From contig CAMWWU010000001.1 of the NCBI GenBank assembly GCA_947178025.1, positions 1 through 47,518 of the forward strand: a stretch of 47,518 nucleotides of DNA, given 5' to 3'. Position numbers and translations under genes: made by a program. This document shows, piece by piece, positions 81-4,520 of the stretch (positions within the stretch are counted from its first letter, which is position 1; the number at the start of each line of letters is the position of its first letter). Under the pieces are notes generated by a model. The model was not told the origin of the DNA, made no database searches, and saw nothing but the letters and a program-made list of their open reading frames with translations. The DNA comes from an uncultured Alistipes sp. GTDB lineage: Bacteria; Bacteroidota; Bacteroidia; Bacteroidales; Rikenellaceae.

Positions 81-660
81 GTCGCAGCCTGCGGAGGATT
101 CGCGAACGGAGTGATGCGGGCCTCCGCGGGGCGAAGGCTGCGGCCCGCCGGCTCCAAAAGAGCCGAAAAAAGAGCGAAGCGACTTGCTGATTGTTGCGGA
201 CGCAGACTACGGGGACTGCATCGACAGATGCGGCCCTCCGCCGCCCCAAGGCTGCGGCCCGCCGGCCCGAGGGGCCAGGAAAGACAGCCGCAACCAATAG
301 ACAAACGGCTCGAAGAGCCACCGAGCATCCCGACTCGATTCCGAGGCGTCGAACGCAGGGCGGACTAAAAGCACGAGCGAAGGGGCCGGTTTGCTTGCAA
401 ACCCGCGAATAGGCGCCCGGAGCCAGCGTTAGGACGCCCGAAGTAGCCGAGGAAGCCGTCGGGAGAGTTTTTGGTACTTTTTGCGGCCAAAAAGTACGAA
501 CAAAAAACGAAGTCTCGGGCAGCAGACTGCGGGGACTGCATCGACAGATGAGCCCGCCTCCCGGCGCAGAGGCCCGCTCTCTCCGTTCGCGGAGCCTTTC
601 GCAGGCTGCAACCCGCAACAACCGACACGCCGCTCGCAGCATCCTCCGCAGATTGCCAGT
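81..660. repeat. Composite intergenic REP/BIME-like mosaic element (modules A, A', B, A'')
   Basis: 29-bp direct repeat GCAGACTRCGGGGACTGCATCGACAGATG at 202-230 and 522-550. Module A (..ATGCGGGCCTCCG..AGGCTGCGGCCCGC-CGGCTCC..GAGCCG) at ~84-170 and ~202-280. Module B at 416-526 contains hairpin GTACTTTTTG-CGGC-CAAAAAGTAC (474-497). Homologous to 4331-4520. Confidence 0.8.
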
Positions 661-734
661 CCGCATTTTTTCAGCTCCTCGGCATAGGCACCCGCCTGCA
701 TCCCGAAAAATTAGGCATTCTCGAAAATTTTCGC

Positions 735-742
735 TATTTTTG
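735..742 (+). promoter_or_regulatory. Bacteroidota sigma-A -7 element for the PqqD/RAPP/TBDR operon
   Basis: TATTTTTG matches TAnnTTTG, 21 nt before ATG 764. Confidence 0.6.
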
Positions 743-763
743 TGCCGATCGATCATTCGAACC

Positions 764-1030
764 ATGAAAATCGGCGAACAATACAAGGTCCGCGAAATGG
801 CGGGCGAACACGTGATCGTCATGCCGGGCCGTTACGGAGCCGACATGACCCGCGTCGTGGCACTCAACGAAACGTCGTGTTTCCTCTGGGAGCAGCTCCG
901 GGGCCGCGACTTCACCACCGAAGAGGCGGCGCAGCTCCTCACGGAGCACTACGAAGTGGATGCCGAAACGGCGCTCCGCGACGCTGCGGCATGGTGTTCG
1001 CAACTCGCTTCGTGCGGCGTACTGGAATAA
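764..1030 (+). CDS. PqqD-family (RiPP recognition element-like) protein, 88 aa
   Basis: MKIGEQYKVREMAGEHVIV...ALNETSCFLWEQL...LTEHYEVDAETALRDAAAWCSQLASCGVLE fits the stand-alone PqqD pattern (LNETxxxLW, EYEVD, LxxxGxL). True start taken as ATG 764 inside ORF 548..1030. Confidence 0.85.
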   Translation: MKIGEQYKVREMAGEHVIVMPGRYGADMTRVVALNETSCFLWEQLRGRDFTTEEAAQLLTEHYEVDAETALRDAAAWCSQLASCGVLE

Positions 1031-1467
1031 TGCGAAGAAAGAGGTTCATATCCATCCTGCTCCTGACCGTCTATCTGCTGGCGGTCGGCGGACCGGCGTG
1101 GGCCTCTCTGTCGTGCGACTGCGTGACGATGCACGCCCGCACGGTCCACACGCACGCCTGCTGCCACCACTGCCACCACCACGTACAGCACGCCCACGAG
1201 GTGCCCGACGTCGACACGTCGCTGAGCGCCCCCTGCTGCGACGACCTCCACTCCACCGAAATCGAACTCTACACGGCATCGACGGACGACGAGCACACAT
1301 GCAAATGCGTCGTCATCGCCCTGCCCCACTGCCTGGCAGCCGCTCGAACGGCGCGCCTCGCAGCCCCGAAATTCCGCAAACAGGCGCTCGCCCCGCCCGT
1401 CGTTCGGGTTGCGGCCGACCCCCTGATCCGCACCGCGGGCCTCCGCGCCCCTCCCGTATCGGCTTAA
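1030..1467 (+). CDS. Secreted/membrane-anchored Cys/His-rich protein with C-terminal RAPP motif (DUF2946/CruR-like putative arrest peptide), 145 aa
   Basis: N-terminal hydrophobic signal MRRKRFISILLLTVYLLAVGG; CDC, HTHACCHHCHHH, PCC and CKC motifs; ends GLRAPPVSA. ATG overlaps the PqqD stop (TAATG). Confidence 0.8.
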   Translation: MRRKRFISILLLTVYLLAVGGPAWASLSCDCVTMHARTVHTHACCHHCHHHVQHAHEVPDVDTSLSAPCCDDLHSTEIELYTASTDDEHTCKCVVIALPHCLAAARTARLAAPKFRKQALAPPVVRVAADPLIRTAGLRAPPVSA

Positions 1468-1528
1468 AATCCAATTGTGACGGAGCACCCTCCGTCCGCA
1501 ACTGCATTTTAACCGACAACGGAAAATC

Positions 1529-3880
1529 ATGAAAATAGCCAATATTCTTATCTCAACGCTCTGCGCACTTGCCGCCACGGCGGCGCATGCGCAGGACCTG
1601 CGCGGTACGGTCCGCGATACGGAGGGTCAGCCGCTCGTCGGCGCTTCGGTCTACTGGGCCGGCACGACGATCGGCACGAGTACCGACGCCGCAGGCAACT
1701 TCCAACTCCACCGCGTCCGCGGCTACGACCGGCTGGTCGCCTCCTATTTAGGATACGTGAACGACACGCTGCGCGTCGACAACGGCACGACAGCCCCTGC
1801 ATTCACGCTCTCCTCCGAAGGCGTGGCACTCGAAAGCGTCACCATCGACGGCAACCTGAGCGGCAACTACGTGCGCCGCGACGGCATCGTCAAGAACGAG
1901 ATGATCTCGTTCGCGGGCCTCTGCAAAATGGCCTGCTGCAACCTGGCCGAGTCGTTCGAGAACTCGGCGTCGGTAACCGTGGGTTACAGCGACGCCATCT
2001 CGGGAGCCCGTCAGATCAAGATGCTCGGTCTGGCCGGCACCTACACGCAGATTCTCGACGAGAACCGCCCCGTCATGCGCGGCCTGAGCGCCCCCTACGG
2101 CCTGAGCTACACGCCGGGCATGTGGCTCAACTCGATCCAGGTGTCGAAAGGCGTCGCCTCGGTGACGGCCGGACACGAGGCGATCACCGGACAGATCAAC
2201 CTCGAACACCGCAAGCCGACCGACGACGAGCGGCTCTTCGTGAACCTCTACCTCGACGACGAGCTGCGTCCCGAGGCCAACATCTCGACCGCGTTCCCCG
2301 TAACGAAGGACAAGAAGCTCACGAGCATCATCCTGCTCCACGGCTCGGCGGACACCGACGTGCGCAAGATGGACCACAACCACGACCACTTCCGCGACCT
2401 GCCGAAAGCCAACCAGATCAACGTGGCGAACAAGTGGCTCTACGCCGCAGACAACGGCATGCAGATCCGCTGGGGCTGGAAGTTCGTGCAGGAGAACCGT
2501 CTCGGCGGCATGCTCGACTACAAGAACACCGCCGCCATGCGCGAAGCGATGGTCGAGGACTGGAACTGGGAGCAGCGCGACATCCCGATGCCGCTCTACG
2601 GCTCGCACATCCGCAACCGCAACGCCAACGGTTATATTAAAATAGGTATGCCCGTCGGACCGTCGGTCTACGATCCCGACGAGAAGGACGAGATGCGCTC
2701 GAACCTCGCATTCGTGGCCGACTTCGACCACTTCGACGAGAGCGCCTACTTCGGGCTCAACGACTACTCGGGCAACGAGAACGCCTTCTCGGCGAATCTG
2801 ATGTACAACCACTACTTCACCTACCGGTCGTCGCTGATCGTCGGGGCGCAGCTCCACCTGCAATCCTTCCGCGAAAACCTGCTCAACCGCACGCCGTGGC
2901 TCACCGAGCTGTCGGAGCACGACTTCCTCTTCGACCGCAACGAACGCGAAGCGGGCCTCTACGCCGAGTACACCTACGCCATCAAGGACAAGCTCTCGAT
3001 CGTGGCGGGTCTGCGCGGCGACTACAATCACTACTACGACCGCTTCTTCCTCACGCCGCGCGGCCATCTGCGCTGGAACATCACCCCGACGACGACGCTG
3101 CGCGCATCGGCCGGTCTGGGCTACCGCTCGACGAACCTCGTCACCGACAATATCGGCATGCTGGCGACCGGACGGGCGATCCGCCTGCTCGGCGACGTAT
3201 CGTTCGCGGACATCGACCGCATGGAGAAGGCCCTGACCGCAGGCGGCAGCCTGACGCAGACCTTCTCGCTGGCCGGCCACGAAAACGCCACGCTGAGTTT
3301 CGACTACTTCCGCACGCAGTTCTACAACTCGGTGGTCGCCGACCAGGAGTACGATCCCACGACGATCATGCTCTACGCCACCGACGGCCGCTCCTACACG
3401 GACACCTACCAGATCGACTTCTCGTGGACGCCCGTCGAGCGGCTCGATATCTTCGCAACGTTCCGCTACACCGACAGCGAAATGACCGTCAAGCGCCCCG
3501 GAGGCGGCATGGCCCGCGTCGAGCGTCCGCTCGTGAGCGAGTACAAGACGCTGCTCAACATCCAGTATGCCACGAAGTTCCGCCGCTGGGTATTCGACGC
3601 CACGGCCCAGCTCAACGGCCCGGCCCGCATCCCGACGCAGACGGGCGACCTGGCCGACGACAGCTACTCGCCGCGCTACCCCATGTTCTTTGCGCAGGTG
3701 ACCCGCAAGGTGGGCAAATTCGACCTCTACGCCGGCTGCGAAAACATCGGCGACTACCGCCAGAAGGATCCGATCCTCAACGCACAAAACCCCTACGACT
3801 ACCGCTTCAACTCGATGAACGTCTGGGGTCCGCTCATGGGCCGCAAGTTCTACATCGGTCTGCGGCTGAACATCTATTAA
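1529..3880 (+). CDS. TonB-dependent outer-membrane receptor (putative heavy-metal/copper transporter)
   Basis: Signal peptide, N-terminal carboxypeptidase-regulatory-like domain (LRGTVRDTEGQPLVGASVY), plug with LCKMACCNLAESFE, beta-barrel ending GRKFYIGLRLNIY. Confidence 0.92.
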   Translation: MKIANILISTLCALAATAAHAQDLRGTVRDTEGQPLVGASVYWAGTTIGTSTDAAGNFQLHRVRGYDRLVASYLGYVNDTLRVDNGTTAPAFTLSSEGVALESVTIDGNLSGNYVRRDGIVKNEMISFAGLCKMACCNLAESFENSASVTVGYSDAISGARQIKMLGLAGTYTQILDENRPVMRGLSAPYGLSYTPGMWLNSIQVSKGVASVTAGHEAITGQINLEHRKPTDDERLFVNLYLDDELRPEANISTAFPVTKDKKLTSIILLHGSADTDVRKMDHNHDHFRDLPKANQINVANKWLYAADNGMQIRWGWKFVQENRLGGMLDYKNTAAMREAMVEDWNWEQRDIPMPLYGSHIRNRNANGYIKIGMPVGPSVYDPDEKDEMRSNLAFVADFDHFDESAYFGLNDYSGNENAFSANLMYNHYFTYRSSLIVGAQLHLQSFRENLLNRTPWLTELSEHDFLFDRNEREAGLYAEYTYAIKDKLSIVAGLRGDYNHYYDRFFLTPRGHLRWNITPTTTLRASAGLGYRSTNLVTDNIGMLATGRAIRLLGDVSFADIDRMEKALTAGGSLTQTFSLAGHENATLSFDYFRTQFYNSVVADQEYDPTTIMLYATDGRSYTDTYQIDFSWTPVERLDIFATFRYTDSEMTVKRPGGGMARVERPLVSEYKTLLNIQYATKFRRWVFDATAQLNGPARIPTQTGDLADDSYSPRYPMFFAQVTRKVGKFDLYAGCENIGDYRQKDPILNAQNPYDYRFNSMNVWGPLMGRKFYIGLRLNIY

Positions 3881-3906
3881 CCGAAACACCAAAAATCATC
3901 GCACAC

Positions 3907-4221
3907 ATGAAAAAACTCGCAATGATCTGCCTGGCCCTCGTGATGGGTGCAGGCATCGCGCTGGCCGAGAAGCCCGTCGCAGACAAGAAGAACACGACCG
4001 CCGTATTCGTCACCGACATCGACTGCGAACACTGCGCCAAGAAGATCATGAACAACGTGCCGTCGCTCGGCAAGGGTATCAAGGACGTCCGGGTGGATCT
4101 TCCGACCAAGGAGGTCACGGTGGTCTACGACGCCACGAAGAACAACGAGGCCAACATCATCCGCGGCTTCGCGTCGATCAAGGTCAAGGCCGAACCCAAG
4201 CCCGTCGCGGAGAAGAAATAA
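3907..4221 (+). CDS. Exported heavy-metal-associated (HMA) domain protein, 104 aa
   Basis: Signal peptide, then IDCEHCAKKI (CxxC) and GIKDVRVDLPTKEVTVVYD typical of the HMA/CopZ fold; ATG at 3907. Confidence 0.9.
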   Translation: MKKLAMICLALVMGAGIALAEKPVADKKNTTAVFVTDIDCEHCAKKIMNNVPSLGKGIKDVRVDLPTKEVTVVYDATKNNEANIIRGFASIKVKAEPKPVAEKK

Positions 4222-4246
4222 TCCGTCGCGAACGACTGCGAAAGAG

Positions 4247-4278
4247 AGGTGCCCGGGAGAAACCCGGGCACCTTTTTT
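4247..4278 (+). terminator. Intrinsic terminator of the TBDR-HMA operon
   Basis: AGGTGCCCGGG-agaaa-CCCGGGCACCT followed by T run. Confidence 0.8.
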
Positions 4279-4330
4279 CAATAGGACGACTTACGATACC
4301 CCTTGCGCCTGCTGGCCGCAGCCTGCGAAG

Positions 4331-4520
4331 CCCGAAGCCAGCGTTAGAACACCCGGAGTAGCCGAGGAATCCGGCGGGAGAGTTGTCGGTACTTTTTGCG
4401 GCCAAAAAGTACGAAGAGAAAAGGATTTCGGGCAGCAGCCTGAGGAGTGCGCGCAAACGCAGTGATGCGAGCCTCCGCCGGGGGAGGCTGCGGCCCGCAC
4501 GGCTCCGATGGAGCCGAAAA
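4331..4520. repeat. Second copy of the intergenic mosaic element (module B then module A)
   Basis: 4331-4415 aligns ungapped to 416-500 with 8 mismatches in 85 nt, including an identical GTACTTTTTGCGGCCAAAAAGTAC hairpin (4389-4412). 4435-4520 resembles 84-170. Confidence 0.85.

What the first reader, a model, noticed from the sequence alone, without database searches (positions are those of the whole stretch)
1030..4221. Putative metal-sensing RAPP ribosome-arrest leader controlling a TonB receptor and HMA chaperone
Seen: a 145-aa ORF with an export signal, dense metal ligands (CDC, HTHACCHHCHHH, CC, CKC) and RAPP (1444-1455) three residues before its stop. It lies 61 nt upstream of a TBDR carrying a Cys-rich plug (CKMACC), followed by an exported CxxC HMA protein. 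Established: RAPP/RAGP motifs stall ribosomes (ApdA/ApdP/SecM class), and the Bordetella DUF2946 uORF CruR (signal + CxxC + RAPP) couples copper availability to expression of a downstream TBDR. Inference: this is a Bacteroidota analogue in which the nascent chain senses periplasmic Cu/Zn/Ni during export and gates a metal-uptake operon. The His-rich tract suggests the metal may differ from that of CruR.
Basis: partly seen in the sequence, partly recalled or inferred. Interest (0 to 1): 0.85.

Follow-up and report, generated by a model that had tools for sequence, protein, structure and literature searches.

The report
Ribosome-stall switch on a metal importer
A small cysteine- and histidine-rich gene ending in a known ribosome-stalling motif sits before an outer-membrane receptor in a gut bacterium, and its last codons are predicted to base-pair over the receptor's start site, so a stalled ribosome would likely switch the receptor on when a metal, more likely zinc than copper, is scarce.

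Summary
In detail: a 145-aa ORF (1030-1467) with a signal-like N-terminus, Cys/His clusters and RAPP (1444-1455), then a TonB-dependent receptor (TBDR) and an HMA protein. RAPP-type leaders precede this TBDR in 73 of 77 same-genus loci. (1) The leader's last codons and stop pair with the TBDR start region (-23 to -7), with compensatory changes across orthologues. This points to SecM/CutF-type translational unmasking rather than CruR's Rho termination. (2) It is not DUF2946. Its N-terminal half is homologous to HYC_CC_PP leaders, which head the same TBDR elsewhere in the phylum without RAPP. (3) A PqqD gene lies between the promoter-like site and the leader. Copper is doubtful: the three copper-enzyme families I searched were absent from the genus genomes tested. 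Stalling, metal binding, the metal and the direction of control are inferred, not shown. The class is in print (RAPP/CutF-like uORFs before TBDRs, Bacteroidota included), and this scan noted similar loci in two other genomes. Verdict: new variant of a known kind.

The parts
735..742 (+). Promoter-like -7 element TATTTTTG (Bacteroidota TAnnTTTG consensus recalled, no call); probable start of a pqqD-leader-TBDR-HMA transcript
   Evidence: Only match in 601-1030; a similar match sits at the like position in most genus loci; function inferred
764..1030 (+). Stand-alone PqqD/RRE-family gene, 88 aa; its stop overlaps the leader's ATG (TAATG); role unknown
   Evidence: PF05402 E=3.4e-17; upstream of the leader in 57 of 77 genus loci; only PqqD match in this assembly
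1030..1467 (+). Leader ORF, 145 aa: signal-like N-terminus, conserved C29, C31, H42-x-C44, C48, C69-C70, H74, spacer, RAPP
   Evidence: no Pfam or NCBIfam hit; N-terminal half matches HYC_CC_PP-type leaders, hhalign probability 97%
1444..1455 (+). RAPP arrest motif, three codons before the stop
   Evidence: RAPP plus 3 residues in 32 of 34 phmmer homologues and 137 of 150 profile hits; all six Arg codons used across 86 loci
1454..1522 (+). Predicted long hairpin: 1454-1470 (last codons and stop of the leader) pairs with 1506-1522 (-23 to -7 of the TBDR start), enclosing an inner hairpin of variable sequence
   Evidence: MFE -33.4 kcal/mol, z -5.13, 0 of 200 shuffles; 13-bp consensus with 6 compensated pairs in 21 close loci; arm-swap test
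1529..3880 (+). TonB-dependent receptor, 783 aa, with KMACC at the start of the plug; substrate unknown, probably a metal
   Evidence: xxACC motif conserved across the phylum; matched in 75 of 80 genus genomes
3907..4221 (+). Exported HMA-domain protein (CxxC), probable periplasmic metal chaperone
   Evidence: PF00403 E=3.6e-10; only HMA match in this assembly
4247..4278 (+). Intrinsic-terminator-like hairpin with T run closing the unit
   Evidence: Sequence and fold; not listed by the pattern scan

Best explanation
The 145-aa gene is likely a metal-gated ribosome-arrest leader: a ribosome predicted to stall at RAPP would cover the left arm of a hairpin that otherwise hides the receptor's start region, so that stalling would turn on translation of the receptor and its chaperone. 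In detail: the nascent chain is likely targeted to the Sec translocon. With the ribosome at RAPP, its conserved Cys/His clusters (the last is 66-73 residues upstream) would lie outside the ribosome and probably in the periplasm. When metal is scarce the arrest would persist, the hairpin would stay open and the TBDR and HMA protein would be made. Metal binding would fold or pull the chain, release the arrest and let the hairpin close. My rough split for the metal is Zn 45%, Cu 25%, Ni/Co/Fe 30%. Shown here: the anatomy, conservation, synteny and covariation of the pairing. Inferred: stalling, export, metal binding, the metal and the sign of the response.
For: RAPP-like leader upstream of the TBDR in 73 of 77 genus loci chosen by the TBDR alone, and in 12 of 20 other loci of the family. 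Exactly 3 residues follow the motif in 82 of 86, which fixes the stall site relative to the hairpin. Expected pairs between leader end and TBDR start region are 6 or more in 72 of 81 directly adjacent loci. The real spacer beat spacer shuffles (at most 1 of 30) in 45 of 54 loci and 0 of 12 in 18 of 27. Arm-swap test: own partner -12.9 versus foreign -6.9 kcal/mol, own partner in the top tenth in 62 of 81; two control regions gave 12 and 10 of 81. In 21 close loci 91.9% of cells pair, with 12 double changes, 0 of 500 shuffles, and slid registers at 50% or less. Masking the stalled-ribosome footprint lowers the cost of opening -16..+13 from 8.3 to 3.4 kcal/mol here (median 9.6 to 3.6 over 81 loci). 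RAPP stalls ribosomes in CruR (PMC12992588), and RAPP-like uORFs from Bacteroidales arrest in vitro (PMC10987492). Bacteroidia initiation depends on upstream adenines and low structure (PMC13000457); A-13 lies in the stem. In 6 family loci a Fur-family gene followed by a TGCAAC-N3-GTTGCA palindrome lies upstream of the same TBDR, as expected of an importer repressed by metal. Against copper: COX1 0 of 41, Cu/Zn SOD 0 of 5, multicopper oxidase 0 of 5, P1B ATPase over cut-off 1 of 5; ZnuA-family 5 of 5. These leaders are His-richer (median 9) than HYC_CC_PP-type ones (median 3).
Against: No experiment on any member. A ribosome terminating at the stop opens the region almost as well (4.3 kcal/mol), so the hairpin alone does not prove regulated stalling. 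RNAalifold found no consensus on the wider 49-sequence alignment. Nine of 81 loci have fewer than 3 predicted cross pairs. The loci are kin, so the counts are not independent. Four of 126 crudely called gene pairs in this genome give as strong a duplex. A second RAPP leader-TBDR pair in the same genome shows no such opening effect (2.7 versus 2.7). No conserved metal transporter or enzyme neighbours name the metal. Six family loci carry the TBDR with no called leader. CutF, which has the same hairpin logic, has the opposite sign (metal on).
Confidence: 0.6

Rival explanations
1. Same stall-and-hairpin switch but with CutF's sign: metal prolongs the arrest and induces a metal-binding or detoxifying TBDR-HMA pair.
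For: Signal peptide, short spacer and start-masking stem match CutF (PMC9973294). Sec pulling releases SecM-type arrest by default. The HMA protein resembles CopZ-type chaperones below cut-off, and most genus genomes tested lack a P1B ATPase.
Against: TBDRs are importers as a rule (recalled). RAPP stalls without ligand in CruR, whereas CutF's motif does not. A Fur-family module precedes the same TBDR in 6 loci.
Confidence: 0.15
2. CruR-type control: arrest blocks Rho-dependent termination in the spacer, and the hairpin is a pause or stability element.
For: The window's leader is C-rich over G through its 3' two-thirds. C93 lies 45 residues before R139, the CruR spacing. Polarity could add to translational control.
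Against: C-G skew above 0.1 in only 14 of 81 loci. C93 is conserved in 18 of 85. The spacer is short and nearly fully paired, and the stem covaries specifically with the TBDR start region.
Confidence: 0.08
3. The leader monitors Sec export or periplasmic thiol/disulphide state rather than metal, or simply gives constitutive translational coupling.
For: RAPP uORFs also precede sec and Dsb/thioredoxin genes (PMC12992588). A terminating ribosome also opens the stem. Cys pairs could form disulphides.
Against: His residues are conserved with the Cys (H42 67 of 85, H74 71 of 85). The downstream genes carry CC and CxxC metal-type motifs. Plain coupling needs no arrest motif.
Confidence: 0.12
4. The ORF is a RiPP-like metallophore precursor recognised by the upstream PqqD/RRE protein, and the TBDR imports its metal complex.
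For: PqqD sits directly upstream in 57 of 77 genus loci, often with a gap under 20 nt, and stays with the leader in rearranged loci L008 and L091.
Against: No modifying enzyme among the neighbours scanned. PqqD is absent at 17 of the 73 genus loci with a called leader and at all non-genus loci. The strict RAPP plus 3 residues and the covarying stem are unexplained by a precursor role.
Confidence: 0.05

Closest known systems
CruR (Bp2923, DUF2946/PF11162) upstream of bfrG (Roy et al. 2022, PMC9426467; arrest shown in PMC12992588)
   Same: About 145 aa, predicted export signal, Cys ligands, RAPP three residues from the C-terminus, upstream of a TBDR; metal proposed to release the arrest and shut off an importer.
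   Different: No DUF2946 match, no CxxC 45 residues from RAPP, spacer about 68 versus 162 nt, start-masking stem instead of a conserved rut-like tract, second gene of its unit, organism without detected copper enzymes.
CutF-cutO of Rhodobacter capsulatus and the 'CutF-like' set (Ozturk et al. 2023, PMC9973294; bioRxiv 10.1101/2025.02.05.636593)
   Same: Exported Cys-bearing uORF whose stall melts a stem-loop over the next gene's start. The published CutF-like list is 19% Bacteroidota and has TonB-like neighbours.
   Different: CutF uses a polyproline motif and CxxxC, masks a Shine-Dalgarno sequence, and is switched on by copper to induce an oxidase. Here the motif is RAPP, the masked region is an SD-less A-rich start, and the target is an importer.
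SecM, ApdA/ApdP and RQH-family arrest peptides (Fujiwara et al. 2024, PMC10987492)
   Same: Signal sequence, RAPP/RAGP arrest, and stem-loop unmasking of the downstream start.
   Different: They monitor Sec/YidC and control sec genes; they are not described with a Cys/His sensor in the passages read.
HYC_CC_PP family (NCBIfam NF047658)
   Same: Same position before the same TBDR subfamily; homologous signal and Cys-rich N-terminal half (hhalign 97%); pairing between the stop region and the TBDR start also seen (17 of 27).
   Different: Ends in PP plus about 10-22 residues, not RAPP plus 3; fewer His; no function found in print; none of 85 RAPP-type leaders hits the model.

Membership tests
CruR / DUF2946 | Match to PF11162 | tested here: not met
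   No hit for the protein at E up to 1 or for 85 orthologues at E up to 0.1; 0 of 61 genomes of the class over cut-off
CruR / DUF2946 | C-terminal RAPP | tested here: met
CruR / DUF2946 | CxxC about 45 residues before RAPP | tested here: not met
   0 of 86 have CxxC 40-52 residues before R; 21 of 86 have any Cys at 42-48; the last conserved CC lies 66-73 residues upstream
CruR / DUF2946 | First gene of the operon with a long spacer and C>G bubble (Rho termination) | tested here: not met
   PqqD gene precedes it in 57 of 77 genus loci; median spacer 68 nt; C-G skew above 0.1 in 14 of 81, though present in this window
CruR / DUF2946 | Copper-dependent release of arrest | not testable with these tools
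   Needs reporter and toeprint assays
CutF-like proteins (rule-based set of PMC9973294) | Under 150 aa, PP within the last 15 residues, N-terminal signal, Cys/His motifs | tested here: met
   145 aa, PP at 141-142, signal by inspection; rules read. Whether this family is in their list could not be seen (File S1 not held)
CutF-like proteins (rule-based set of PMC9973294) | Stem-loop masking the downstream start, reachable by the stalled ribosome | tested here: met
   Predicted and covarying; not probed experimentally
HYC_CC_PP (NF047658) | Score over the 28-bit cut-off | tested here: not met
   0 of 85 hit at E up to 0.1; 20 of 29 leaders of the same TBDR without RAPP hit it, 13 over cut-off
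HYC_CC_PP (NF047658) | Homologous signal plus Cys-rich N-terminal region | tested here: met
   hhalign probability 97.1, E 6.8e-11 over 75 columns; part of the score is shared signal peptide and Cys richness
RAPP arrest peptides (SecM/ApdA/ApdP class) | Motif-dependent ribosome stalling | not testable with these tools
   Motif, position and codon-independent conservation fit; stalling itself needs in vitro translation

The most novel reading that the evidence does not exclude
This is a zinc-sensing (non-copper) arrest-peptide switch working on a Shine-Dalgarno-less start. It is the RAPP-bearing branch of a phylum-wide set of metal-sensor leaders: the uncharacterised HYC_CC_PP family would be the ancestral form, coupled to the same receptor by a stem at its stop codon, and one gut lineage swapped in RAPP as the arrest module, while other lineages replaced the leader with a Fur-family repressor.
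Probability: 0.3. Interest if true: 0.75.

Novelty: new variant of a known kind. Interest (0 to 1): 0.5.

Why it matters
The two metal-responsive arrest leaders with experiments in the papers I read, CruR and CutF, are proteobacterial and copper-specific. This locus gives a testable Bacteroidota case in a common gut genus. It has a predicted, covariation-backed coupling mechanism that needs no Shine-Dalgarno sequence, and the host seems to have little use for copper. It also suggests a function for the HYC_CC_PP family and marks a widespread xxACC-plug TBDR subfamily as probable metal importers, which bears on how gut anaerobes compete for metals. The general class is already predicted in print, which caps the surprise.

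Tried and rejected
RNAalifold on 49 diverse spacers gave no consensus; the arms shift by indels, so a close subset of 21 and an alignment-free swap test were used instead. The C93-to-RAPP spacing of 45 looked like CruR's but is not conserved. An intrinsic terminator in the spacer was rejected: the stem is followed by an A-rich tract, T-rich in 7 of 81. No Rfam match in 600-4400. AlphaFold model of the leader: only the N-terminal helix is confident (pLDDT 65.7, pTM 0.36). The single-sequence TBDR model failed (pLDDT 29.5), so no fold search was run. The PDB sequence search matched only the N-terminal domain of SusC-like proteins. Complex prediction of PqqD with the leader returned no verdict. 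Public runs: one RNA run holds a relative's contig across pqqD, leader and TBDR start, but contigs show neither strand nor transcription. The Fur-box search gave no regulon: the best palindrome in each of 5 genomes is at this locus (perfect in 4, one mismatch in 1), so the metal could not be named that way; the Fur-family proteins score below every subfamily cut-off. The Atlas gave unnamed Bacteroidota clusters and a DUF6769 cluster at 0.95, a lead only; 1 of 85 leaders hits DUF6769 at E 0.098. Literature searches for HYC_CC_PP or for this TBDR subfamily found nothing specific.
Full report
OBSERVATION. The ORF 1030-1467 encodes 145 aa with a basic and hydrophobic N-terminus, Cys/His clusters and RAPP-VSA-stop. 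The TBDR starts 61 nt later (1529-3880, CKMACC). An exported HMA protein follows (3907-4221), closed by a terminator-like hairpin at 4247-4278. The only TAnnTTTG-like element (consensus recalled) in 601-1030 is upstream of pqqD, so the leader is probably gene two of four. Named homologues of the leader are Alistipes proteins. I infer that genus; the family name Rikenellaceae is recalled.

CONSERVATION. The TBDR was found in 75 of 80 genus genomes, 38 of 120 family genomes, 124 of 200 order genomes and 54 of 250 phylum genomes. I examined the upstream DNA of 77 of the 83 genus genomes with a match. A rule (signal-like stretch, at least 4 Cys, RAPP-like end) called a leader in 73. Of the other four, one ends RAPS, one has RAPP but is cut by the contig end, one has too little DNA and one is broken. 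Of 20 loci from other genera of the family (29 had a match), 12 had RAPP-type leaders, 2 a PP-type leader and 6 none. Over all 86 RAPP-type calls the tail after the motif is 3 residues in 82 and all six Arg codons are used, so selection is on the peptide. Homologues found by protein search agree: RAPP plus 3 in 32 of 34 and in 137 of the best 150 of 536 profile hits (the profile contains the motif). Conserved candidate ligands among 85 aligned leaders (one of the 86, L008, was left out of the alignment) are C29 (80), C31 (55), H42 (67), C44 (79), C48 (72), C69 (70), C70 (73) and H74 (71). CKC is not conserved.

FAMILY. Neither the protein nor 85 orthologues hit DUF2946 or HYC_CC_PP. Outside the family the same TBDR is headed by a different small exported Cys-rich gene. 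Among 57 order, class and phylum loci the rule called 1 RAPP-type and 31 PP-type leaders (one a mis-call, L072), and several uncalled loci show similar ORFs by eye. Of 29 PP-type leaders scanned, 20 hit NF047658 HYC_CC_PP and 13 pass its cut-off. The profiles of the two types align over their first 75 columns (probability 97%). In a midpoint-rooted FastTree of 90 TBDRs (genus thinned to a third, partial sequences left out), all RAPP-type loci fall in one clade (support 0.987) nested among PP-type loci. This is consistent with one change of C-terminal module; no clade test was run. The same three-gene layout is annotated in Parabacteroides distasonis and Bernardetia records.

COUPLING. The stretch 1438-1545 folds into a long hairpin (-33.4 kcal/mol, z -5.13). 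In it 1454-1470 pairs with 1506-1522, that is -23 to -7 of the TBDR start. Bacteroidia do not use Shine-Dalgarno pairing and rely on adenines at -3, -6, -12 and -13 and on low structure (PMC13000457, passages); A-13 is in the stem. Among 81 loci with spacers of 38-160 nt (5 longer ones set aside), 72 have 6 or more expected cross pairs and 9 have fewer than 3. Spacer shuffles seldom match this (45 of 54 loci at 1 of 30 or fewer; 18 of 27 at 0 of 12). Each left arm prefers its own right arm (-12.9 versus -6.9 kcal/mol; top tenth in 62 of 81, against 12 and 10 of 81 for control regions), and the loss grows as arms diverge. In 21 close loci RNAalifold finds 13 pairs, 6 with compensatory changes, beating all 500 shuffles on four of five measures (1 of 500 on the fifth) and all slid registers. 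The wider alignment gave no consensus, and kinship inflates all these counts. CruR stalls with the two prolines in the P and A sites (PMC12992588, passages). Masking such a footprint (+12 to +15, recalled) cuts the opening cost of -16..+13 from 8.3 to 3.4-3.8 kcal/mol here, and by 3 or more in 64 of 81 loci. A terminating ribosome opens it similarly (4.3), so what RAPP would add is dwell time. Four of 126 crudely called gene pairs of the genome give as strong a duplex. A rut-like C>G tract is present in this window but in only 14 of 81 loci.

METAL AND SIGN. Neighbours do not name the metal: HMA is the only recurrent partner among 82 neighbour proteins scanned from 40 extended loci (82 of 195 listed). 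COX1 was found in 0 of 41 genus genomes, Cu/Zn SOD and multicopper oxidase in 0 of 5, a P1B ATPase over cut-off in 1 of 5, and ZnuA-family proteins in 5 of 5. Copper import would serve little that I could detect, though other copper proteins were not searched. RAPP-type leaders carry more His than PP-type ones (median 9 versus 3). In 6 family loci a Fur-family gene plus a palindrome precedes the same TBDR. Fur-family proteins usually repress when metal-bound (recalled), which favours 'starved = on'. The last conserved Cys pair lies 66-73 residues before the arrest site (10th-90th percentile), far enough to clear the ribosome tunnel and membrane (lengths recalled). That fits periplasmic sensing better than CruR's 45.

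PRIOR ART. Roy et al. 2022 (PMC9426467; parts 1-4 of 7 read: abstract to early methods): CruR acts through Rho and does not need its signal peptide. Ozturk et al. 2023 (PMC9973294; passages and section 11): CutF stalling melts a stem-loop, and their 5,334 CutF-like proteins are 19% Bacteroidota, with TonB-like neighbours and some proposed for other metals. Their list (File S1) is not held; the 3 held files lack Alistipes. PMC12992588 (passages, section 13) states that RAPP uORFs of the TonB class occur throughout Gram-negative bacteria and that the Cu-related class is missing in Bacteroidota. Nine supplementary files searched lack Alistipes or Rikenellaceae; one held file and four oversized files were not seen, so this family may be listed there. 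PMC10987492: passages only. bioRxiv 10.1101/2025.02.05.636593: abstract and outline only. Searches found no study of this family, of HYC_CC_PP or of this TBDR subfamily in the held library. Two earlier notes of this scan describe similar loci in other genomes; I had reached the hairpin reading before seeing them and did not test them.

VERDICT. A real, strongly conserved leader that works most likely like SecM/CutF in its coupling and like CruR in its sign, but is a member of neither DUF2946 nor, by score, HYC_CC_PP. My confidence is about 0.85 for arrest plus hairpin coupling and 0.6 for the whole model with metal gating and 'starved = on'. New variant of a known kind; interest 0.5.

Noticed in passing
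L005, L007, L091 (between leader and TBDR); L008 (upstream of pqqD); L027, L028 (in place of a leader); L110 (box only): A Fur-family gene followed by a TGCAAC-N3-GTTGCA palindrome lies upstream of the same TBDR, in several loci just before a TAnnTTTG-like element. The best copy in each of 5 genomes searched is at this locus. It looks like a mobile local repressor module that overrides or replaces the leader.
   Followed up: partly
L213:4285-4620 (-) and L213:1903-4209 (-), own genome contig C25: A second small RAPP-ending exported ORF (111 aa, RAPP plus 2) lies 75 nt before another TBDR with a CQNC plug; no start-masking stem is predicted there.
   Followed up: partly
window 764-1030: Stand-alone PqqD/RRE gene tied to the leader in most of the genus, with no RiPP enzyme seen nearby; unexplained.
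   Followed up: partly
27 loci among L025-L085; L224:6785-6940 (Parabacteroides distasonis plasmid record): HYC_CC_PP-type leaders also show cognate pairing between their stop region and the TBDR start (17 of 27 in the top tenth; z -2.93), suggesting they couple to the receptor too.
   Followed up: partly
L100, upstream of the TBDR: The leader is shortened, with its signal region and RAPP in different frames; natural loss or assembly error.
   Followed up: no
L031: A genome of another family carries a RAPP-type locus nested among this genus in the TBDR tree, a possible transfer; no clade test was run.
   Followed up: no
window about 200-630 and 4330-4520: Intergenic repeats flank the unit on both sides and match 19 contigs of the genome; REP- or MITE-like.
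   Followed up: no
own genome G000: No Fur-family match and no P1B ATPase over cut-off in an assembly 88.7% complete.
   Followed up: no
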